Source: Bacteroidota bacterium
GTDB lineage: Bacteria; Bacteroidota; Bacteroidia; AKYH767-A; OLB10
NCBI GenBank assembly: GCA_016709725.1
Contig: JADJMG010000005.1
Coordinates: forward strand, 387,544-451,543
Reading direction: 5' to 3'
DNA length: 64,000 nt
The notes beneath the pieces are model-generated. The model made no database searches. It saw only the letters and a list, made by a program, of their open reading frames with translations, and had not been told where the DNA came from. Shown one piece after another: positions 17,031 through 64,000 of this stretch (position 1 is its first letter; each line of letters opens with the position of its first letter). Both the position numbers and the translations under genes were made by a program.

Positions 17031-17125
17031 TAAGAATTAAGAATTAAGAATTAGGAATTAAGAATTAGGAATTAGGAATTAGGAATAAGGAATAAGGAAT
17101 AAGGAATAAGGAATTAATAACAACC
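17031..17125. repeat. microsatellite-like tandem repeat (gaattaa/ggaatta/ggaataa units)
   Basis: Visible run: agaattaagaattaagaattaggaatt...ggaataaggaataagg. Related gaattcagaatt(a/c)(a/t)gaatt blocks occur at 2915-2945, 3055-3080, 8365-8395, 51256-51290 and 51375-51415. Confidence 0.75.
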
Positions 17126-17634: not shown

Positions 17635-17784
17635 CTTTACTTTCCAATAAAAACTAAATTAATGTGACACATCAAAGATACTCTATCGGGAACAACCTGT
17701 GCTGTACAATGTACGAAAATAAAAAAGCCTCGTCTGATTCATGAAAATCGGATGAGGCTACCTTACTACTTCGCGGCCCCCAAA

Positions 17785-18158
17785 GGCCGGCCGCGGGGCC
17801 CCCCGCGGCGGGGGGGGGGGCCCCCCGCGGCGGGGGGGCCCCCCCCCCCCCCCCCCCGGCCCCGCCCGGGGGGCCCCCCCGCGCCGGCGCCGCCCCCGGG
17901 GCCCCCGGCGCGCCCCGGGGCCCCCCCCCCCGGCCCCCGGCGGCCCGCCCCCCCCCCGGGGGCGCGGCGCGGGGCCGCCCCCCCCCGCCGCCGGCCCCCC
18001 CCCCCCGGGGGGGCGCCCGCCCCCCCCCCCGCCCCGCGGGGGGGGGCGGGGGCCCGGGCCCCGGCGGCGGGGGGGGGGGCGGCCCGGGGGTGGGGGGGGT
18101 CGGCGGGGGGGGGCGGGGGGGCGGCGGGGGGGGCGGGGGGCCCCGGGGGGGGGCCCCT
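17785..18158. other. about 375-bp tract of essentially pure G+C (alternating G- and C-homopolymers), probable sequence artefact
   Basis: Only a couple of T and no A over about 375 bp in an AT-rich genome. The listed ORF 17752-18162 merely translates it as Pro/Gly/Ala/Arg. Confidence 0.9.
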
Positions 18159-18165
18159 ATAAACC

Positions 18166-53570: not shown

Positions 53571-54406
53571 ATGAAAAGTGCACAACTGAGGATCATCCTC
53601 ATTGCCGGCACAATTCTACTTTCGGCAGCTCTTTATTTTGCGCCCTCTCAGTTAAACAAGAAAGGAGCAGAACCCAAGGCCGCAGCTGAAAATACAGAGG
53701 ACGAATTCAACCCGGAAGCCTTATTGCGATCGGCAAAAGCTTCTCTCGACACCAACGCTCTTCAACAGCTTGAGATCATTGAGAAAGCCTCCGCCCAAGC
53801 AAACAATCAAGATACTGCCTTACTAGACAGCATCGGCAAAATCTGGGATAAAAACGGAATACCGGCTGCTTCCGCCATTTGGTTTGAGCGAAAAGCACAA
53901 ATAGTAAAGAGTGAAACATCATACCTTGATGCAGCTTATCGCTATTTTGATTCTTTTCGAAATGGCCAATGACAGTATGATTCAGTCGTTATTAGTTGGT
54001 AAAGCCATCACCAACTATCAAAAGGTTTTAGAATTAAATCCGAACAACCTGAATGCAAAAACAGACCTTGGTGCCTGTTATGCCGATGGAACTTCGGAGC
54101 CTATGAAAGGGATTATGTTATTGCGTGATGTAGTAGCAGCCGATCCCAATCATGAAATGGCCCAATACAATTTGGGAATGCTATCGGTGAAATCAGGGCA
54201 ACTTGATAAAGCGATCGAACGATTCCAAAAAGTACCAGAAATAAATCCTCAAGAAGCGAAATGAACTTTACCTCGGTCAAGTTCATCTTCAAAAAGGAGA
54301 TACGGCAGCGGCCATACAGTCGTACGAAACGTTCATCAAGAATGCGAAGTATGATGTATCCGATGTCATTAAAATGGTTCAAGCACTCAAGAAGAAAACT
54401 TCTTGA
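53571..54406 (+). CDS. tetratricopeptide-repeat protein, interrupted by about 2 frameshifts (pieces 53571-53972, 53911-54264, 54262-54406)
   Basis: N-terminal TM anchor, then TPR-like segments continuing across three frames (..YNLGMLSVKSGQLDKAIERFQK.. / ELYLGQVHLQKGDTAAAIQSYE..). Confidence 0.6.
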
Positions 54407-54620: not shown

Positions 54621-56186
54621 GTGGACTATATTGATTTAAGGAATTTTGTAATCCTCCCATGCAAAATTATTAGGCTTCAAGATTTGAACAGCGAACTCAT
54701 TATTGATTCGTCGACTTCCGAGGTGCAAATTGCCCTTGTTGAAGACAAGCAGCTCGTAGAGTTAAATACAGAAAAAAAAGAAAAAGGATTTTCTGTTGGT
54801 GACGTCTACTTGGGCCGCGTGAAGAAACTTATGCCTTCACTCAACGCCGCTTTTGTAGATATCGGTTATGAAAAAGATGCTTTTCTCCATTACCTCGATT
54901 TAGGTACCCAGGTACAATCCCTCATCAAGTACATGAAGAATACACAAGCCGGCACACAAACCGATGGCTTGTTGAATAACTTCGAACTGGAAGCAGACAT
55001 CCACAAAGCCGGCAAAATCGGACAAGTGGTAAACACCAACCTAAACATCATGGTGCAGGTGGCCAAGGAACCCATCAGCAGCAAAGGTCCGCGCATCACC
55101 GCCGAACTTTCCTTTGCTGGGCGATTTGTAGTTTTGGTTCCCTTTTCAGATGTTGTTTCCGTATCTCAAAAAATTAAGAGCAGTGCCGAGCGACTTCGCC
55201 TAAAACGTTTAGCGACGAGTATCAAGCCCCGAAACTTCGGAATCATTGTTCGCACTGTTGCTGAAGGAAAAAAAGTTGCCGACCTCGACAGAGATGTGCA
55301 AGATTTAACTTCGAAGTGGACGGCTTTGCACGAACAATTAAAATCGGCCACACCACCTGCAAAACTCTTGGGTGAAATTGATCGCGCTTCCACCATCTTA
55401 AGAGATTTATTGAATGCAAACTTCAATGCCATTCATGTCAATGATGTTCGGGTTGCAGAAGAAATAAAAACGTATTTGAGAGGGATTTCTCCCGATCAAG
55501 TCGACATTGTAAAGTTGTACAAAGGCAAGTTACCCATTTTCGAAAACTTTGGTATCGACAAACAAATAAAATCTCTTTTTGGAAAAACAGTGAACATGGC
55601 TGGGGGTTCCTACCTCATCATTGAGCATACCGAAGCCATGCATGTGATTGATGTGAATAGTGGCGGCCGAAACAAAGGGGCATCCGACTCACAAGAAAAC
55701 AATGCGCTGCAAACAAACTTAATGGCGGCAAAAGAGATTGCCCGTCAATTTAGCATGCGCGATATGGGTGGAATCATCGTCATTGATTTCATCGACATGA
55801 AAAACACGGTGAATCGCAAAGCCTCCAACAAAATTTGGTCTTGTTCAAATCACACGGGAGCGTGTACGACCGGTTACCGATATCATTACCGTAGAGAAAT
55901 GTCCGGCCTGTGATGGAACGGGAGAAATTAAAGCCTCCTCCTTTTAATCGACGACATTGAAAATAATTTACGTTACCTCTGCGAAGAGCAAAACGAAAAA
56001 GGGTTAACCTTACAAACGCATCCTTTCGTAGCTGCCTTTTTAAATAAAGATTTTTGGAAATTCAAATCTTTCCAATGGAAATGGCGCAAGAAATATAAAA
56101 GCTGGGTAAAGATTGAACCCATCTCCTCCTTCCATTTAATGGAATTCCATTTTATGAATAAGCAAGGGGAAGTGATAAAGCTTTAA
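54621..56186 (+). CDS. rng: ribonuclease G (RNase E/G family), with 2 apparent frameshifts in the 3' quarter
   Basis: An S1 domain and the catalytic core (HVIDVNSG, DMGGIIVIDFIDM). The C-terminus ...VQITRERVRPVTDIITVEKCPACDGTGEIKASS / LIDDIENNLRYLCEE...FWKFKSFQWKWRKKYKSWVKIEPISSFHLMEFHFMNKQGEVIKL continues in other frames to the TAA at 56184-56186. Confidence 0.8.
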
Positions 56187-56380
56187 GTGCTTTTTTTCTT
56201 GGAAGCTTCCGCTTTCTACAATACCTATTTCTTGATCTTTAACTGCTATTCTTCGATGGATGGGGAGTTAGTACGTACTTGTACTTAGTGGGAACTTTTT
56301 GGTGGGGGTAGATGGGTGTTTGGTTGGTTTAAAAAGTATATTTGAGGAAAGCTAAGCATGAGTAAAGCCTCTGTCTAGGG
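56020..56380 (+). repeat. left copy of an about 330-360 bp direct repeat (covers the last about 45 codons of rng plus about 190 bp downstream); candidate att site
   Basis: About 85-90% identical to 59735-60100 (for example gattgaacccatctcctcc, ggtttaaaaagtatatttg). Confidence 0.7.
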
Positions 56381-56462
56381 ATGAGGCTTTACTTAATAAT
56401 CGCGAGGTAATAATATGTTACCTGCAATTTTTAGCGACAGTCCTAACTTGATACTTTAAGCA

Positions 56463-59400
56463 ATGAATAAAAACCGAATAGCAAATTTCTTAGGATTTCT
56501 GACAACTGCGACTATCACAGGAGTTGGACTTTCCATGACATCCAATCAGTTTGTTGGTGGAGCAATCATTGGGCTTGGTATTGAATTGGGTTCAGGTTTC
56601 ATTGAGTCAGTTTGCTCAAAACTCAAAAAGAATTGGACTAAAGAAAATTATGGACTTTTAAATCATGACATTCAAAAGTCATTACAACGAAGTATTGTGG
56701 CGGCTCTGAATGATATGCAGACAGAATGCCTTACAATGCCATTTGCACCTGACGAAAGAGAACCCATCAAAAACTTTTATGACAGTTTGATTAAGGAATC
56801 AAAAGAAGATTTCTTCCACAAGTATTTAGAAGATAAGAATGACAACATACTAAAAGATCTTATAAACAAAAACTCTTCAACCTTTGAGAAAGACATTACT
56901 GATGGAATCTACAACGAAGAATTACTTTCAACTTTCAGTTTGTCTTTTAAGCATTACTTCAAAGAAACTTTAGTAAAGAAATTACGGTTTTGGTTTACAG
57001 AAGATTTGAAGGGTGAAGGCGATGAAAATAAAAGAGCAAGAGTAGCGTATGAAAAAATTCTGTTGGAGAGCATTGAAAACACATTACAAGAGCAGTGCAA
57101 TAAAATAACATCTCTTCAAACCCAAGTGGGTTTGATTTTTGAAAATTCAATTAGAGCAATCAATGAAGGAAAACAATTCAAGAAACACTTCAAAAACTCT
57201 TTCCACAATTTCCTTCTTTTTCTTTAGTAACAATTCCGCAAGAGGAAAGTAACAACGCAGATAAATTCTATGACGGTTTCCCCCCGCAACTTGAAGATTT
57301 AAAAGCAAATTTTGATTTTCCAAGAAATCTTTATTTAAAAGATAGTGGAGTTAAGTCAAGAATAAACGAACTAACATCATCTGATGCACACTTTGTAAAA
57401 TTCATTCTGATAAAAGGAGTTGGGGGTAGTGGAAAATCTACATTGCTCAAAAGAATTTCGTTTGACCAAACAATAATTGGCAAGAATGTTTTTACCTAAA
57501 CAAAGATTGGTTTGAGGACAAACAAATCAACAAACTTCAAACTCAAATAAAACGACTTGCCGAATCTTATCCCGATTGTGTAATAGTACTTGATGACATT
57601 GCTGATTGTATTTTAAGAGAAGAAATAAATTTTCCCGAACTCATTAATTCACTAAGTTCAAAAAGGATTTTGTTTGTTCTTGCTGACCAACCTGACAGAT
57701 GGAACAGAGTAACTCCCAAGGTGAGGGAGCTAAATACAGCAGGACAACTTCTCTCATTCGACTTACACCAACTTGACGAAATTGAATGCGAAGATTTAGC
57801 GGATAAAATGATTGAACTTGAATCTGAGGAAAAACTTTCAATCAGACACCTTGAATTGACAAAGGAAGAACGAGTAAAACTTTGTAAGGAAAATTCTAAA
57901 AGACACTTTGTAGTCGCAATGCTGCAAATCCGATATGGTAAAAGGTTCAGCGATATTATAATTGAAGAATTTGAAAAAATACCATCAGAGAAAGGTAAAG
58001 AAGCATATCTGATGGTTTGCTTTTGCAATCATTTAGGACTTTCAATTCCTGAATCCATTGTTATCAGTGCTTTGCACTTAACATCTTCTCTTAGCATAAA
58101 TGAATTTCATTCCTACACGGAAGGAATCGTTATTTTCAGTAAGTATGGTTTATCTTCAAGACACCCAATAATAGCCCGTGAAATTATCCGCAACTTTGTC
58201 AAAACAAAATTGAATTTCATTTCAACCTAAAACAAATATTCTCCTCATTAGGTGAAAACAAAATAGAAGTTTCAGATTTCTTAGACAGCTTCTTATCAAA
58301 GGAAAATATTCACAAAACCTTAGCAAAGATATTAGAAAAGGACATTGTTTTAATTGAGGATATTATTCAGATAATAGAAAGCAAGAAACATCTTTTAGAA
58401 AAAGATTTGCTTATCAAGTTGATGAGTTTTTATGGAATGACTGAACGATTGATTGGAAATGACGAGAAGGCGTTAGAAATTTTCAAACAGATTATTAGTG
58501 AGATCGACAAGGGGTATTCTTTTTGCGTATCGGCAAATCGGCTGGATAGAACACGACAATCAGAACTATGATGAAGCTGCAAATTATGCGATTCAATCCT
58601 ATCAGTATTCAAATGAAAATCCCGAACACATTATTCAGATTGCAAAGCTTTTGGCTCTTAATACAGTTAAGAATTTTAGAGAAGCAAAAAAATATTATGT
58701 AGCAGCACTTGAAAAAAGTAACAAGGACAAGTATTACCAAGAAGAACTTGAAAAATATACTGATGCAGAAAATGCACTGAACTACTTTTCGCAGTTATAC
58801 GATGATGACTTCATTCCAGACGATATTATCAAAGCGCTAAGACCAGGACTTAACTTTTTCAGAATCTATTTTCACACTAATTCAAAAGAGTTTAAAAATA
58901 AACTCATCAATGTTCTTCATGGAATGGAAGGCGATACCAAGGGAAGCATTGAAGACCTTGACGCAGTTGTTGAAGGTTTCAACATCAAGAAAGACAAGTT
59001 AGTAAGTAGTAAATACTACGGCAATCTTGCACGAATTATGTATTTGGAGTGGTATAAAAATGAAAAAAATAATTGACCCTACTAAGATACTTGAGGTTTT
59101 CCAAACCAGTTTAACTTTAAATTCAAATGACCCATTTACTCATTGTTGGTTAGGAACATTCTATAAAGAAGTTTTGAAAGATTTTGTAACAGCAGAAGCC
59201 GAATACAAAAAAGCAATTGCCCTTTCAAAGAATTCTAAATACGAACATGACAAAGACCACCCACTCTTTTCAAATAATCTTGCTCTCTTGATTATGGATG
59301 AAGTGGTTGCTGACAAACTTCCAAAAGAAAAATTATTTGAGGCAAAATCTCTTTTAGATTTTTCTGTAAAAGTTAATACCGAAAAACAATCAAGTTTTTA

Positions 59401-59464
59401 TTGGGCAGAACATAATCTCTCAAAGTGTTTGGACTTAATTGACAGATATAAATTGACTTCGTAA
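56463..59464 (+). CDS. NLR-like STAND/NACHT-type NTPase (N-terminal glycine-zipper/helical domain, P-loop NTPase, helical region, C-terminal TPR repeats), split over 6 frame segments
   Basis: Segments 56463-57227, 57167-57499 (Walker A FILIKGVGGSGKSTLLKRI), 57457-58230 (Walker B CVIVLDDIADC), 58182-58568, 58498-59076 and 59027-59464 (TPR-like). The junctions overlap at A/T homopolymers. Confidence 0.6.
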
Positions 59465-59734
59465 CCTTGAATAAAATGACGAACACAACTCCGAACTTTC
59501 ATCTTTGTGGCGAGAGTAAAACTGCAGGTAACATGGGGTTTTCGATAGTGGGTGTTTCGTGCTCCGCAGACACATTTGTACAAGGTGGAATCCTGCCTGC
59601 CGGCATGCAGGTTCAGTTCCCCGCATGAGGATTAGAGTTAAGACTCATCATCATCGAACCTATTACAGAACCAATTGTTTTACTGTTACAGACTTACAAA
59701 ATGGACAGAGCAAATCGAAAAAAGCCCAACTCTC

Positions 59735-60100
59735 CAAACCAAGCCCTTCGTTGCTTCCATTTTGAAAACTGATTTTGGAAATTCAAATCTTTTCAATTGA
59801 AATGGTTCAAGAAATATAAAAGCTGCGTGAAGATTGAACCCATCTCCTCCTACCATTTAATGGAATTTCATTTTTTGAATAAGCAGGGGGAAGAGATAAA
59901 GCTTTAAGCGCTTTTTTTTCTTGGAAGTTTACGACTTCTACAATACCTATTTCTTATTTCTTAATTGCTATTTGTCGCCTGTGGCTATTTAGTACGTATT
60001 TGTACTTAGTGAAAACTTTTTGGTGGGGCTAAATGGGTGTTGGGTTGGTTTAAAAAGTATATTTGGGAAAGGGAAATGTGAGTTAAGCCTACAGACTAGG
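59735..60100 (+). repeat. right (diverged) copy of the direct repeat; still encodes an RNase G C-terminus-like peptide FWKFKSFQLKWFKKYKSCVKIEPISSYHLMEFHFLNKQGEEIKL
   Basis: Alignable to 56020-56380 at both nucleotide and protein level. Confidence 0.7.
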
Positions 60101-60181: not shown

Positions 60182-62288
60182 ATGCATATTTCAAAGTTTA
60201 CAGCATTTAATTTTAGAAGTCTTAGACAAGTTGTTTCTTTACGATTTGAAGGTGGGAGAAATGTCATTGTTGGTAAAAACAATTCGGGTAAGTCGAATAT
60301 TATTAAAGGGATTGAAATTCTAATTGGCGAAAAATTTCCAACCTATATCAATTTCACAGACAACGATTTTTATACTTACGAGGCAGTTGATGAAGACACA
60401 GGAGAATTTCGAGAAGTTGTTTCAGACAATCTTTATTTAGAGGTTGAATTAGCAGGAAGAGATTTTGATGAAACTTTACTAAATACAATTAAAAAACAAA
60501 CCGCATTTTCAAGAGTAGAAAATTCCGCTTCTCTTTATCATAAACTAGAAAATGGAGAATTCAAAGCAAATTATGACTTCTTTCAAAGTCTTGACGACAT
60601 TGAGAGTAGGCCTGAAGTAATCGTTTGCGGCGAAAATCTAGGTGGAAGACAAAAGAAAACGGAATGGAAAAAACCTGAAAACCTCATTGCTTTTTTTAAA
60701 ATCAGCAAGGACAATCAAACTCTTTTTTTTGTAAATCCCGAACGGATGATGAAAAGTCAGGTTTCGGTTTGATTTGCGTTGATTCAAATGGATTAATTTG
60801 GGTATCACATTTCTTATCAAAAAAATTAAGAGATTCTTTAATTACAACAACTGTAATAAGTGCACTTCGTAGTCAAAAAGAAGATTTGAGATTGGTTCAT
60901 TATACATGGTTTGGAAAACTAATAAAAGGCTTATGGGAGGACAATAAAGCAAGCACTCATCCAACCGAACAAAAATCTTATGAGGAACTTATCAAATCAA
61001 AATCAATAGATATAAAGCGTTTCGTTGATGAGGTTTTTCGTAAGGATACTACTGAAATAAGAAAACTTTTAGAAGGTGCAATAGCTCATAAAGAAATTTC
61101 ATTCCGTTTTATGAATGATACAACAAATGAGTTATACAAAAATATTCAACTTTTTGTTAATGATGGAATAGATAGGCCCCTTTACGAAAAAGGAACAGGG
61201 ATTCAAAGTGCAATAATAATTTCTTTGTTTTCTCTGTATTGTAACGAGTATCATAATAATAGTTCTCTTTTAATTGCAGAAGAACCAGAGTTGTTCTTAC
61301 ATCCACAAGCAAGAAGAGTTATATCGGCCGAATTGGATAAGTTTTTAAATGGTTCTCAAGAACAACAACGCCAACTTATTATTAGTACACACTCTGTGGA
61401 GTATCTGAAAAATGTTGACCCCTTTAATATAATTCGTGTATATAAGGATAGTATCAATAATTGTTCGATAGTTAAACAACTTGACCAAGCAACATCTCAA
61501 CAAATCACAACAGAACTTAAGAGATTTCTTTGGTCGAACAATACGGAACTCTTTTTGCTGACAAGGTTGTCTTAGTTGAAGGAGGTGAAGTTTATTTAAT
61601 TCCATCAATAGTTGACAAATTAAAAGGTTTTAAACAATTATTAGACTATCAAAACATTACGGTTTCAAGAGTAAATGGTAAAGGAAGCTTTTTGACATAT
61701 GTTAAAATGTTACAATGCTTTGATATTGAATTTATTATACTAGGAGATTTAGATTGTTTTAAGGACGAAGTACCTAAACTAATTAAGCATTTAAAAATTA
61801 ATGCAATAATAGAAAATGCAGGGAAAATTAAAACTGCGATTTCTTCATTGCCAATTAGTTATGAAGCTATTGATGAACGAGTAAAGGGAGTTGATAGAAA
61901 CTATGATTCACAAACTCTACAAAGCCTTTTTGAAAAATTTGCAAGTGGAGAAATCGAAAAAGACAATGAAGATCTTCTTGCAATTATTCAATTTATGCAA
62001 TTACGTTACACTAAAGGAGATAAAGAAGAAGTGATTATTGAATCGGTTGGAGAAGAAGAATTTAACACTGTACTTTCAACTCTCAGAGACAATAACATTT
62101 TCATTTGGTCAAAGGGTGATCTTGAATGTTACTATTCAGACAAATCAAAAGCATTAAACGGAAGTAAAGACATCAAAGCACTTGAATTATCATATCTATT
62201 ACAGGTTGAAACAGAAAATATAGAAGATTTAATTCTACATCTTGACGAAGTAAAACAACTTATCGAAACGATATTGAAAAAAGAATAA
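60182..62288 (+). CDS. OLD-family ATP-dependent endonuclease (ABC-type ATPase + TOPRIM), split into 3 frames (60182-60772, 60769-61575, 61530-62288)
   Basis: N-terminal FNFRSL...VIVGKNNSGKSNIIKGIE (Walker A). Middle LLIAEEPELFLHPQARR (Walker B/D-loop) and ISTHS (H-loop). C-terminal KVVLVEGGEVYL and ILGDLD (TOPRIM E and DxD). Confidence 0.65.
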
Positions 62289-62455: not shown

Positions 62456-64000
62456 ATGTCTGTAGATACAAAAGAAATTGAGAAATTATTAGTAAAATCA
62501 TACAATGAAGGTTTCTCAAATTTAAATTTTAGCTATTTTGATTTAAGAGAAATTCCATTCTTTATTTTAGAACGCCCTTTATTATTAAATCAAAAGCGTA
62601 AAGATGGTTCAGATTCTGAAGAATATGAAAATTTGAATTTGGAGAAAGTACGAGAATTAAATTTATCTAATAACTATCTTACTCAAATAGACACAAAAAT
62701 ATCATGTTTTAAAGGACTTCAAACCTTAGATATTTCAAATAATAAACTAGAACAGCTTCCACGACAAATATGTGAACTTGGAAACTTAAAAGAAGTAATT
62801 GTCAATAACAATCCTCTAATTAATTTACCTCAAAAGTTTGCATCATTTCAAAAGCTTGAAATTCTTGATCTATCCAATACAGCGATTTATGAAATACCAA
62901 ACTATATTCAATATCTGTATAATTTAAAAGAACTAAATTTAGCTAATTGTAAATTAAGTGTACTACCTAAAAGAATTATACTACCTTCCAAATCTTAAGA
63001 TTCTTAACATTACAGGTAATCCACTCATTGACCCTCCTATTGAAATAGCCTCAAAGGGTATAGATTACGTAAAATATTATTATGACGAAATTGACTCTTC
63101 AATAGAAAAAGATTTCTTGTATGAAGTAAAACTTCTACTAATCGGTGAAGAAAGAGCAGGAAAATCAACCATTGCCGAATCACTATCAAATCCAAATTAT
63201 GAGTTTGATTTATACAAAAACAGCACACAAGGTATAGACATCAAAAAATGGACAATAAATCAAGATAAATTAAATATTGAAAAGGATTTTCAAGTCAATA
63301 TTTGGGACTTTGGTGGTCAGGAAATTTATCATGCAACCCATCAGTTTTTTTTTCACAAAACGTTCGTTGTATTTTCTAGTAACAGAGGCTCGAAAAGATT
63401 TAAGGCACGATGACTTATTTTATTGGTTGAATCTAATTGAGATTTTAGGAAACAATAGTCCCGTAACGATTTTAATAAATAAAAGCGACCAACCATATAC
63501 GTTCTTTGCAACAGATGCCTACCGAGAAAAATTTCCTAATATTTTAGGAACAAAAAACATTAGTTGCTTGCCCGAATACAAAAATACAATTGAAGAATTA
63601 AGAGAAGTAGTCTATTCAATATTGTCTAATAAAGATTTAATGCCTGATATTGGAGTTGAACTACCTAAGGTTTGGATAGATATTCGGAACGAATTAAATA
63701 GTATTAAAGATGCTGGAGTTTTTTATATTAAAACTAGTAGATACTTTTCAATTTGTAAAAAATTTGGAATGAATGAAGAAAGATCTCTTTTTTTAAGTGA
63801 CTACTTTCATGACCTTGGAGTATTTCTCCATTTCCAAAATGATTTAGTTTTAAAAGATACTGTTTTTTAAATTTTGAGTGGGTTACGAATGCGGTTTACT
63901 GCATACTCGATAATCCTAGAATAGTTTCTAATCATGGCTTCTTTAATGATACTGATTTAGAGATTATTTGGAAGAAAAACTATTATTTTGATAAAAGGTT
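62456..64000 (+). CDS. ROCO-type protein (LRR - Roc small GTPase - COR), fragmented by several frameshifts and running off the window
   Basis: LRRs (LxxLxLSNNxLxxLP, 62456-62998). Roc G1 KLLLIGEERAGKST, G3 IWDFGGQE (62958-63413) and G4 NKSD (63277-63870). COR-like sequence continues in another frame to 64000. Confidence 0.6.

What the first reader, a model, noticed from the sequence alone, without database searches (positions are those of the whole stretch)
56463..59464. NLR-like STAND NTPase with an unusual N-terminal glycine-zipper/helical domain and C-terminal TPR sensor
Six adjacent frame segments can be read through as one protein of about 1000 aa. It has a 250-aa N-domain with a glycine-zipper TM-like helix (GGAIIGLGIELGSGF) followed by a K/E-rich all-alpha region. 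Next come a NACHT-like P-loop (GVGGSGKST), a Walker B (VIVLDDIAD), a helical/winged-helix-like region and C-terminal TPR repeats. This architecture (effector - STAND NTPase - repeat sensor) is that of bacterial antiviral STAND (Avs/bNACHT) and eukaryotic NLR proteins. The membrane-type N-domain is reminiscent of the membrane-targeting cell-death domains HeLo and RPW8 and the MLKL 4HB, and I could not assign it to a known family. Every segment junction that I localised (57167-57227, 57487-57491, 59070-59076) sits at or beside an A/T homopolymer, so the gene is probably intact in vivo.
Basis: partly seen in the sequence, partly recalled or inferred. Interest (0 to 1): 0.85.

Follow-up and report, generated by a model that had tools for sequence, protein, structure and literature searches.

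The report
Bacterial NLR-like defence gene, new membrane domain
The six fragments are one intact 1000-residue bacterial immune-receptor-like gene, broken here only by sequencing errors, and its front end is an undescribed membrane-type domain sitting where close relatives carry a DNA-cutting enzyme.

Summary
Window 56463-59464 (+) reads as six frame segments that join into a 1000-aa protein. Three independent public assemblies carry the same gene uninterrupted. The window differs from them by five 1-nt homopolymer length errors, and the same error type hits neighbouring genes, intergenic DNA and RNase G. This is a sequencing artefact, not a pseudogene.

The central NTPase belongs to Pfam PF25199 'Novel STAND NTPase 5' (48.4 bits, cut-off 34). 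It is not NACHT or NB-ARC. The C-terminal 420 residues are only weakly TPR-like.

Residues 1-249 form a real, uncurated domain family with 111 representative proteins. It is always N-terminal and has a Gly-rich hydrophobic helical hairpin followed by a conserved helical bundle (motifs LNHDIQ, FxEELK, AWRAFQ). No Pfam, NCBIfam or PDB relative was found.

The domain is fused to at least three distinct Pfam STAND families (nSTAND5, nSTAND1, NB-ARC; AAA_16, NPHP3_N and ATPase_2 models also hit members). A paralogue that is 84% identical from residue 250 onward carries a Cap5-type HNH nuclease in the same position. A plasmid relative carries SIR2 there.

Contexts are defence islands or mobile elements.

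Most likely this is a single-gene Avs-like abortive-infection protein whose output is membrane damage. That last step is inferred, not shown. It is a new variant of a known kind, of moderate interest.

The parts
56463..59464 (+). Whole gene: 1000-aa nSTAND5-type STAND protein. In this window it is interrupted by five 1-nt sequencing errors. Its first fragment is deposited as the 254-aa 'hypothetical protein IPJ26_07180'.
56463..57208 (+). N-terminal domain, residues 1-249: an uncurated family made of a hydrophobic hairpin plus an all-alpha bundle ending in a long helix (187-246).
   Evidence: Profile search found 111 proteins, with the domain always N-terminal. AF2 with 61 sequences gave pLDDT 75.9, about 90 in the core from residue 70 to about 120 and again from about 150 to 240, and 61-73 for residues 121-150. 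No Pfam or NCBIfam model matches. The swap boundary lies at residue 250.
56478..56612 (+). Gly/Ala/Ser-rich hydrophobic helical hairpin (residues 6-25 and 30-50) with GxxxG spacings G33-G37 and G39-G43. Predicted topology is an N-in/C-in membrane hairpin.
   Evidence: Kyte-Doolittle maximum is 1.42 here and averages 1.73 across the family. Family-wide K/R counts are 1.5 before, 0.03 in the 4-residue loop and 2.7 after. Glycine makes up 18%.
56661..56669 (+). N67-H68-D69 of the LNHDIQ motif (90-98% conserved in the family); role unknown.
56988..57071 (+). Conserved FxFxEELK ... AWRAFQRLLLEG block of the N-domain. Here it reads FWFTEDLK ... ARVAYEKILLES.
57263..57720 (+). STAND NTPase core, residues 268-420, Pfam PF25199 nSTAND_NTPase5. 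Walker A GVGGSGKST is at 57416-57442, Walker B VIVLDDIAD at 57580-57606, and the invariant QPDRWN at 57682-57705.
57721..58197 (+). Post-NTPase region, residues 421-580, highly conserved (KRHFVVAMLQIRYG). It sits where STAND proteins have their helical/winged-helix arm. It was not assigned here.
   Evidence: Conservation; no profile match
58198..59461 (+). C-terminal sensor candidate, residues 581-1000: TPR-like repeats, alpha-helical by inference only (no structure prediction was made for it), with all TPR hits below cut-off.
   Evidence: TPR_12 25.9 bits, TPR_17, TPR_14. It is 89% identical to the HNH paralogue.
57167..57167 (+). Sequencing error 1: GG here, GGG in three other assemblies (frame 0 to 2).
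57494..57494 (+). Sequencing error 2: CC here, CCC elsewhere (frame 2 to 1).
58205..58205 (+). Sequencing error 3: A4 here, A5 elsewhere (frame 1 to 0).
58520..58520 (+). Sequencing error 4: T5 here, T4 elsewhere (frame 0 to 1). A compensated pair at 58541-58542 (GGCT vs GCTT) changes the near-invariant Ala694 to Gly.
59063..59063 (+). Sequencing error 5: A7 here, A6 elsewhere (frame 1 to 2).
55990..56365 (+). Direct repeat copy A: the last ~190 nt of RNase G plus ~180 nt downstream, immediately upstream of the STAND gene.
   Evidence: 83% identity over 397 nt to copy B
59712..60085 (+). Direct repeat copy B: a displaced pseudo-3' end of RNase G plus the region upstream of the OLD gene. Together with copy A it brackets the STAND cassette.
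   Evidence: A Chryseobacterium MAG shares only 56462-59473 with the window.

Best explanation
This is one intact gene for a single-protein, Avs-like antiviral STAND (NLR-like) receptor of the nSTAND5 clade. It was acquired as a one-gene cassette downstream of RNase G, in a defence island of an uncultured Bacteroidota bacterium. The breaks in this window are homopolymer sequencing errors.

**Proposed mechanism**
1. The C-terminal TPR-like repeat region binds an invader-derived ligand, most likely a phage protein.
2. Binding releases the NTPase to bind ATP and oligomerise.
3. Oligomerisation brings the N-terminal domains together.
4. Their Gly-rich hydrophobic hairpins and helical bundles assemble into a membrane-perturbing structure (a pore or channel).
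5. The infected cell is depolarised and killed or arrested before phage release.

**Shown here**
- The ORF is intact.
- The NTPase belongs to the nSTAND5 family and has Walker A and B motifs.
- The N-domain is a conserved, mobile domain family with a hairpin of membrane-like hydrophobicity that obeys the positive-inside rule.
- The N-terminal position is a swappable effector slot, holding HNH, SIR2 or an Mrr-like domain in relatives.
- The gene moves alone and sits among defence genes.

**Inferred only**
- Ligand sensing by the repeats.
- Oligomerisation.
- That the N-domain output is membrane damage.
For: **Intact gene**
-.

**STAND membership**
- PF25199 scores 48.4 bits against a cut-off of 34. 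The same family hits all ten homologues.

**Effector slot**
- P0001 residues 250-1000 align to P0005 residues 113-863 at 84% identity with no gaps, while the N-termini are unrelated.
- P0005 residues 1-105 match CBASS HNH effector models at E = 5e-27 to 1e-30.
- P0007 also has an HNH-type N-terminus, and P0010 a weak Mrr_cat-like one (E = 0.062, below the cut-off).
- Psychrobacter plasmid protein WP_068039562.1 is SIR2_2 + nSTAND5 (84.8 bits) + TPR, next to a type I R-M system.

**N-domain family**
- 111 representative proteins, with the domain always N-terminal.
- Fused to nSTAND5, nSTAND1+ankyrin, NB-ARC, AAA_16 and NPHP3_N.

**Hairpin**
- AF2 gives an all-alpha model whose confident core is separate from a low-confidence hairpin.

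**No other output domain and no conserved partner gene**
- The window and a Chryseobacterium MAG share only the gene itself.
- Neighbours differ in every context:
  - OLD nuclease and a ROCO-MCU protein here.
  - AbiEi/AbiEii and a large helicase.
  - Relaxase, TraG and a recombinase, i.e. a mobile element.
  - Two GmrSD genes and a ResIII helicase next to another N-domain-nSTAND5 protein.
Against: - There is no experimental evidence for any member.
- No PADLOC defence model matches the protein.
- The window protein's own hairpin is only borderline hydrophobic (Kyte-Doolittle 1.42, below the usual 1.6), and its second helix carries E41 and E48.
- The strongly conserved polar motifs (NHD, EELK, AWRAFQ) lie in the soluble bundle. 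They would fit a binding or catalytic surface as well as a pore former.
- The same N-domain also occurs without any NTPase. Examples are ~500-aa Bacteroidota proteins with a third TM helix and a CarboxypepD_reg-like domain, and proteins where it is joined directly to TPR arrays. It may therefore be a general membrane-anchoring or signalling module.
- No structural relative among known pore formers was found.
- The sensor is no more variable than the NTPase among close relatives.
Confidence: 0.58

Rival explanations
1. The N-domain is a membrane anchor or homotypic adaptor (like the effector-associated domains of Kaur et al. 2021), not the killing module. On this view the STAND protein sits at the membrane and recruits or activates a separate effector that carries the same domain or binds its conserved polar surface.
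For: - 18 of 110 family members are shorter than 300 aa and could be stand-alone N-domain proteins.
- The domain also occurs with non-NTPase partners.
- The conserved NHD, EELK and AWRAFQ motifs are in the soluble part.
- Adaptor logic is documented for other STAND systems (PMC8195603).
Against: - No conserved neighbour exists across four contexts, and only the gene itself is shared between genomes.
- None of the 25 Pfam families shown (of 55 that matched) among 72 members is an enzymatic effector.
- Many short members lie on contigs of only 2-5 kb and may be fragments.
- In close paralogues the slot holds true effectors, not adaptors.
Confidence: 0.2
2. It is a non-immune, membrane-associated STAND signalling protein with a housekeeping or regulatory role.
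For: - No PADLOC hit.
- Defence and non-defence STAND clades are interspersed (bioRxiv 10.64898/2026.01.04.697583, section 4).
- The sensor is not hypervariable.
Against: - The family is extremely sparse: 3 loci among 185,579 species genomes.
- It behaves as a mobile single-gene cassette with flanking repeats.
- It sits in defence-island or mobile-element contexts.
- The N-terminal slot swaps with Cap5-like HNH and SIR2.
Confidence: 0.08
3. The frameshifts are real, and the gene, together with its neighbours, is a decaying pseudogene in this strain.
For: The deposited sequence carries the breaks, and its first fragment is annotated as a 254-aa hypothetical protein.
Against: - All 14 indels in 7.7 kb are 1-nt homopolymer length changes, including at GG and CC runs and in intergenic DNA, against about 2 clean substitutions.
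- The housekeeping RNase G gene and a TPR gene upstream are hit in the same way.
- Three other assemblies are intact and agree with each other.
- The first 53 kb has the same homopolymer density and only one candidate break (an ORF overlap near 22 kb, not examined), so the pattern looks like local failure of polishing.
Confidence: 0.04

Closest known systems
Avs (antiviral STAND) proteins, especially SIR2-STAND (Avs5-type) and nuclease-STAND forms (Gao et al. 2022, from my own knowledge; general scheme restated in PMC10907252 and bioRxiv 10.64898/2026.01.04.697583)
   Same: - Single polypeptide with an N-terminal swappable effector, a central STAND NTPase and a C-terminal TPR-like sensor.
- Defence-island and mobile-element locations.
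- Relatives carry HNH, SIR2 or Mrr-like effectors.
   Different: - No PADLOC Avs model matches.
- The NTPase falls in Pfam nSTAND5.
- The effector here is an undescribed membrane-type domain.
- Nothing has been tested experimentally.
Pfam PF25199 nSTAND_NTPase5 ('Novel STAND NTPase 5')
   Same: The NTPase core passes the curated cut-off (48.4 against 34). All ten homologues and the plasmid SIR2 protein match it too.
   Different: The family covers only residues 268-420 and says nothing about the N-domain or the sensor. I found no paper that describes nSTAND5.
Membrane-targeting cell-death domains of eukaryotic NLR pathways (HeLo/HELL, RPW8/CC, MLKL 4HB) and the bacterial Bell domain (bioRxiv 10.1101/2020.01.06.895854)
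   Same: An all-alpha N-terminal module with a hydrophobic N-terminal segment, attached to or partnered with an NLR-type NTPase. The predicted output is membrane damage after oligomerisation.
   Different: - It is about 250 aa, against roughly 100-140 aa.
- It has a two-helix Gly-rich hairpin rather than one hydrophobic helix.
- It has its own conserved motifs.
- No fold or profile similarity was detected.
- Bell could not be compared directly.
Colicin- and Bcl-2-type pore-forming domains (comparison from my own knowledge)
   Same: About 200 aa of amphipathic helices plus one hydrophobic helical hairpin that could insert into the membrane.

Membership tests
STAND NTPase, Pfam nSTAND_NTPase5 (PF25199) | Profile match above the curated gathering score | tested here: met
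   48.4 bits against 34, residues 268-420, E = 1.1e-12
STAND NTPase, Pfam nSTAND_NTPase5 (PF25199) | Walker A GxxGxGK[ST] and Walker B hhhhDD | tested here: met
   GVGGSGKST (residues 319-327) and VIVLDDIAD (374-382). G319, G322, S323, G324, K325, T327 and D378 are invariant in 10 homologues.
STAND NTPase, Pfam nSTAND_NTPase5 (PF25199) | Helical/winged-helix arm after the NTPase core, then super-structure-forming repeats | tested here: inconclusive
   Residues 421-580 are conserved but match no profile. All TPR hits are below cut-off (TPR_12 25.9 against 30.1).
NACHT (PF05729) / bNACHT | Profile match to the NACHT NTPase | tested here: not met
   13.2 bits against a cut-off of 26.7, covering the P-loop only. 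No PADLOC bNACHT hit.
NB-ARC (PF00931) | Profile match | tested here: not met
   14.4 bits against a cut-off of 23.5
Avs1-5 (AVAST) as modelled in PADLOC-DB 2.0 | Match to an Avs protein model | tested here: not met
   Only mad8, mad3 and VakA P-loop hits, at E >= 0.0028
Avs1-5 (AVAST) as modelled in PADLOC-DB 2.0 | Recognition of a phage protein and phage protection | not testable with these tools
   Needs expression and phage challenge
HeLo / RPW8 / MLKL 4HB membrane-targeting domains | Profile or fold similarity | tested here: not met
Glycine-zipper membrane helices | Repeated GxxxG spacing in a hydrophobic helix | tested here: met
   G33-x3-G37 and G39-x3-G43. G22, G37 and G39 are conserved at 61-87% in the family, and glycine is 18% of the hairpin. 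No Pfam Gly-zipper family matches.
Bell domain (bacterial HeLo-like) | Homology to the ~100-aa Bell five-helix bundle | not testable with these tools
   No Bell sequence or profile was at hand. Size and motifs differ from the published description.
New N-domain family defined here | N-terminal hairpin plus LNHDIQ, FxEELK and AWRAFQ motifs | tested here: met
   The query has LNHDIQ, FWFTEDLK and ARVAYEK. W193, F196 and Q197 are substituted (R, Y and E in the query). The profile retrieves 111 proteins.

The most novel reading that the evidence does not exclude
The N-terminal 250 residues define a previously undescribed family of oligomerisation-gated membrane-permeabilising effector modules. Several unrelated clades of prokaryotic NLR-like (STAND) receptors use it, and so do some non-NTPase membrane proteins. 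On this reading it is a bacterial, independently evolved counterpart of the HeLo, MLKL and CC-resistosome 'death by membrane insertion' principle. The natural HNH/membrane-domain swap on one sensor chassis would offer a ready-made experimental pair.
Probability: 0.4. Interest if true: 0.7.

Novelty: new variant of a known kind. Interest (0 to 1): 0.52.

Why it matters
Bacterial STAND/NLR-like receptors are a well-established kind of antiviral system, so the architecture itself is expected.

Three things are new:
1. The N-terminal module is a sizeable domain family (111 clusters at 50% identity) with no curated model, no solved relative and no mention in the papers I could search. It is attached to at least three distinct Pfam STAND families.
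2. The paralogue pair P0001/P0005 shares an 84%-identical NTPase-sensor body but carries either this domain or a Cap5-type HNH nuclease. That is a natural controlled comparison for testing whether one trigger can be wired to membrane or DNA destruction.
3. There is a practical lesson. The gene is split into fragments in the deposited genome, the first of which is annotated as a 254-aa hypothetical protein. Defence islands in long-read metagenome bins can be hidden by residual homopolymer errors in this way.

If the membrane-effector reading is right, it gives a tractable bacterial model for NLR-driven membrane killing.

Tried and rejected
**Searches that found nothing**
- PADLOC and NCBIfam on the merged protein gave nothing beyond P-loop noise.
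- Sequence searches of PDB, with the N-domain profile and with the full-length profile, gave no hit better than E = 0.012.
- Rfam on the whole window gave 0 hits.
- The sigma-70 promoter and terminator scan around the gene was no better than shuffled sequence.
- tblastn against phage genomes and a scan of IMG/VR viral contigs found no relatives.
- Literature searches for 'nSTAND5' and for bacterial ROCO-MCU fusions returned nothing relevant.

**Attempts that failed technically**
- AF2 with only 5 close sequences was useless (pLDDT 46). It was repeated with 61 sequences.
- The afdb50 fold library was not available.

**Ideas rejected**
- Phase variation or programmed frameshifting is rejected. 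There are five simultaneous breaks, and the same error type occurs in intergenic DNA and in RNase G.
- Hypervariability of the sensor is not seen.
Full report
**1. What is in the sequence**

Between 56463 and 59464 on the + strand, the three forward frames hold six long open segments that overlap end to end, in frames 0, 2, 1, 0, 1, 2. Joining them inside the overlaps gives a protein of exactly 1000 residues.
- the Gly-rich helix GGAIIGLGIELGSGF, within residues 30-50
- GVGGSGKST, residues 319-327
- VIVLDDIAD, residues 374-382

**2. The breaks are sequencing errors**

A search of 5.8 billion protein clusters returned P0001, an uninterrupted 1000-aa protein identical to my merged translation except for two residues. 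It is encoded on three other assemblies: GCA_020051655.1 and two Logan assemblies of separate sequencing runs.

Aligning those DNAs to the window gives 99.7% identity. Every one of the five frame changes is a 1-nt homopolymer length difference, at 57167, 57494, 58205, 58520 and 59063. All three other assemblies agree with each other against the window.

Over the 7.7 kb shared with the longest contig there are 14 such indels and only 6 substitutions. Several indels are intergenic, and others break the two downstream genes. Four of the substitutions are two close pairs; the pair at 58541-58542 reads as two cancelling run-length errors. One of these changes Ala694, which is near-invariant in the family, to Gly.

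Upstream, the housekeeping RNase G gene and a TPR gene are broken in the same way. The first 53 kb of the window has the same homopolymer density and only one candidate break, an ORF overlap near 22 kb that I did not examine.

Exact protein look-ups identify the window as part of a 466,581-nt contig of a 'Bacteroidetes bacterium' MAG (proteins MBK7682205-MBK7682248). There the first fragment of this gene is annotated as the 254-aa hypothetical protein IPJ26_07180. My reading is that a long-read assembly was incompletely polished over a strain-variable island. That is an inference. I did not verify the sequencing platform.

**3. What the protein is**

The central region matches Pfam PF25199, 'Novel STAND NTPase 5', at 48.4 bits against a cut-off of 34. 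NACHT, NB-ARC and the generic AAA models stay below their cut-offs. So this is a STAND NTPase, but not a NACHT. All ten detectable homologues match the same family.

The last ~420 residues give only sub-threshold TPR matches. No PADLOC or NCBIfam model fits the protein, and no solved structure is a detectable sequence relative.

The family is very rare:
- ten clusters in the word-indexed search
- three loci among 185,579 species genomes, from Chryseobacterium, Mucilaginibacter and a Planctomycetota fragment
- none in phage genomes or viral contigs

**4. The N-terminal slot is an effector slot**

P0005 aligns to P0001 from residue 250 to the end at 84% identity without a single gap. The N-termini (249 and 112 residues) are unrelated.

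The P0005 N-terminus matches the HNH endonuclease effector models of CBASS (Cap5-type, SAVED-HNH) at E = 5e-27 to 1e-30. Other relatives fill the same position differently:
- P0007 has an HNH-type N-terminus, P0010 a weak Mrr_cat-like one (E = 0.062, below the cut-off), and P0009 something else again.
- A more distant relative on a Psychrobacter plasmid is SIR2_2 + nSTAND5 (84.8 bits) + TPR, next to a type I restriction system.

Per-domain identities show that the sensor is conserved along with the NTPase while the N-terminus is swapped.

**5. The N-domain is a real, undescribed family**

A profile of the five close N-domains, searched against 1.84 billion representative proteins, found 111 proteins at E<=0.001, of which 58 were at E<=1e-10. 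The match is at the N-terminus of almost every hit, and the proteins are 97-2333 aa long.

A 61-sequence alignment shows these features:
- a hydrophobic Gly/Ala/Ser-rich helical hairpin
- a basic KLKExW stretch
- the near-invariant LNHDIQ motif
- FxFxEELK
- NKAWRAFQRLLLEGI

No Pfam or NCBIfam model hits any of the 61 members beyond single chance matches. No PDB sequence matches.

*Hairpin properties.*
- The first helix averages Kyte-Doolittle 1.81 over 17 residues.
- The second helix is more polar (0.73) and has a conserved Asn and Ser.
- The connecting loop is 4 residues long and carries essentially no Lys or Arg (0.03 per sequence).
- The flanks carry 1.5 and 2.7 Lys/Arg per sequence. This is the positive-inside pattern expected for an N-in/C-in membrane hairpin.
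- The window protein itself is at the low end (maximum 1.42, against a family mean of 1.73).

*Fusion partners.*
- Several STAND families carry the domain: nSTAND5, nSTAND1 with ankyrin repeats (Kordia), NB-ARC, AAA_16 and NPHP3_N.
- The domain is not confined to NTPases. Only 21 of 72 members of 450 aa or more have a strict Walker A motif.
- Some members go straight into TPR arrays.
- A group of ~500-aa Bacteroidota proteins adds a third TM helix and a CarboxypepD_reg-like beta-sandwich.

**6. Context**

The gene is bracketed by ~370-nt direct repeats at 55990-56365 and 59712-60085, about 83% identical. They consist of the 3' end of RNase G plus downstream sequence. A Chryseobacterium MAG that is 87% identical at the DNA level shares only 56462-59473, that is, the gene alone. 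It therefore behaves as a one-gene cassette.

Neighbours differ in each context:
- Here, the neighbours are an OLD-family ATPase-TOPRIM nuclease and an LRR-Roc-COR protein with a C-terminal MCU-like pore domain.
- In the 91% orthologue, they are AbiEi/AbiEii and a large helicase.
- For P0009, they are a relaxase, TraG and a serine recombinase.
- Another N-domain-nSTAND5 protein sits next to two GmrSD genes and a ResIII helicase.

**7. Mechanism and rivals**

The best-supported reading is a single-protein Avs-like abortive-infection receptor. The TPR-like sensor would bind an invader protein, the NTPase would oligomerise, and the clustered N-domains would damage the membrane. I am confident (about 0.85) in 'intact single-gene STAND defence protein with a swappable effector slot'. 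I am much less so (about 0.5) in 'the N-domain kills by membrane permeabilisation'.

The main rival is that the N-domain is a membrane anchor or adaptor. The conserved polar motifs in its soluble part and its occurrence without NTPases leave room for this. Against it, the protein has no other output domain and no conserved partner gene.

A non-immune role and true pseudogenisation are both unlikely, for the reasons given above.

**8. Novelty**

The kind of system is known (antiviral STAND/NLR-like; PMC8195603, PMC10907252, bioRxiv 10.64898/2026.01.04.697583). The NTPase family is already in Pfam. The N-terminal module and its natural swap with an HNH nuclease appear to be undescribed. I rate this a new variant of a known kind, with moderate interest.

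Noticed in passing
window 62456-64000 (cut by the window end); full gene in L001 6166-8838: An 890-aa LRR-Roc-COR-A-COR-B (ROCO) GTPase carries a C-terminal mitochondrial-calcium-uniporter (MCU, PF04678) domain above the Pfam cut-off (51.8 against 30.8). A 'TWDRMEQ' stretch lies between two TM helices, where MCU has its WDIMEP filter (motif recalled from my own knowledge). It is a second NTPase switch fused to a membrane-channel module, two genes downstream of the STAND gene (the OLD nuclease gene lies between). In the window it is broken by the same homopolymer errors.
   Followed up: partly
window 60182-62288: An OLD-family ATPase-TOPRIM nuclease, 701 aa and intact in L001 (PADLOC Old 4.4e-46, GajA 1.6e-42). 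Here it is split into three frame pieces by 1-nt homopolymer errors at 60691, 60723 and 61551. No GajB-like partner lies next to it.
   Followed up: partly
window 55990-56365 and 59712-60085: Direct repeats of ~370 nt, about 83% identical, bracket the STAND gene. Copy A is the true 3' end of RNase G plus downstream DNA. Copy B is a displaced pseudo-3' end. This is the signature of cassette insertion at a hotspot downstream of RNase G.
   Followed up: partly
window 53571-54264 and 55790-55945: A TPR-protein gene and the 3' part of the housekeeping RNase G gene also carry frameshifts. The error-rich stretch therefore starts at about 53.9 kb, before the defence island.
   Followed up: partly
window 17776-18157: A ~380-nt block of almost pure G and C (runs up to C19 and G11), C-rich in the first half and G-rich in the second, sits in a 37% GC genome. 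It probably reflects an assembly or polishing artefact. ORF 17752-18162 across it is spurious.
   Followed up: no
window 17034-17116: Tandem heptamer GAATTAG, about 12 copies, in an intergenic region.
   Followed up: no
proteins P0188-P0203, P0081-P0119 (not in the window): The same N-domain occurs in ~500-aa Bacteroidota proteins. There it is followed by a coiled coil, a third TM helix and a C-terminal CarboxypepD_reg-like beta-sandwich (PF13715/PF13620), with no NTPase. It also occurs fused directly to TPR arrays.
   Followed up: partly
L001 10141-11566: A gene pair downstream in the island: a 364-aa protein with no family match, overlapping a 114-aa STAS-like DUF4325 protein. Neither matches a PADLOC model.
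   Followed up: no
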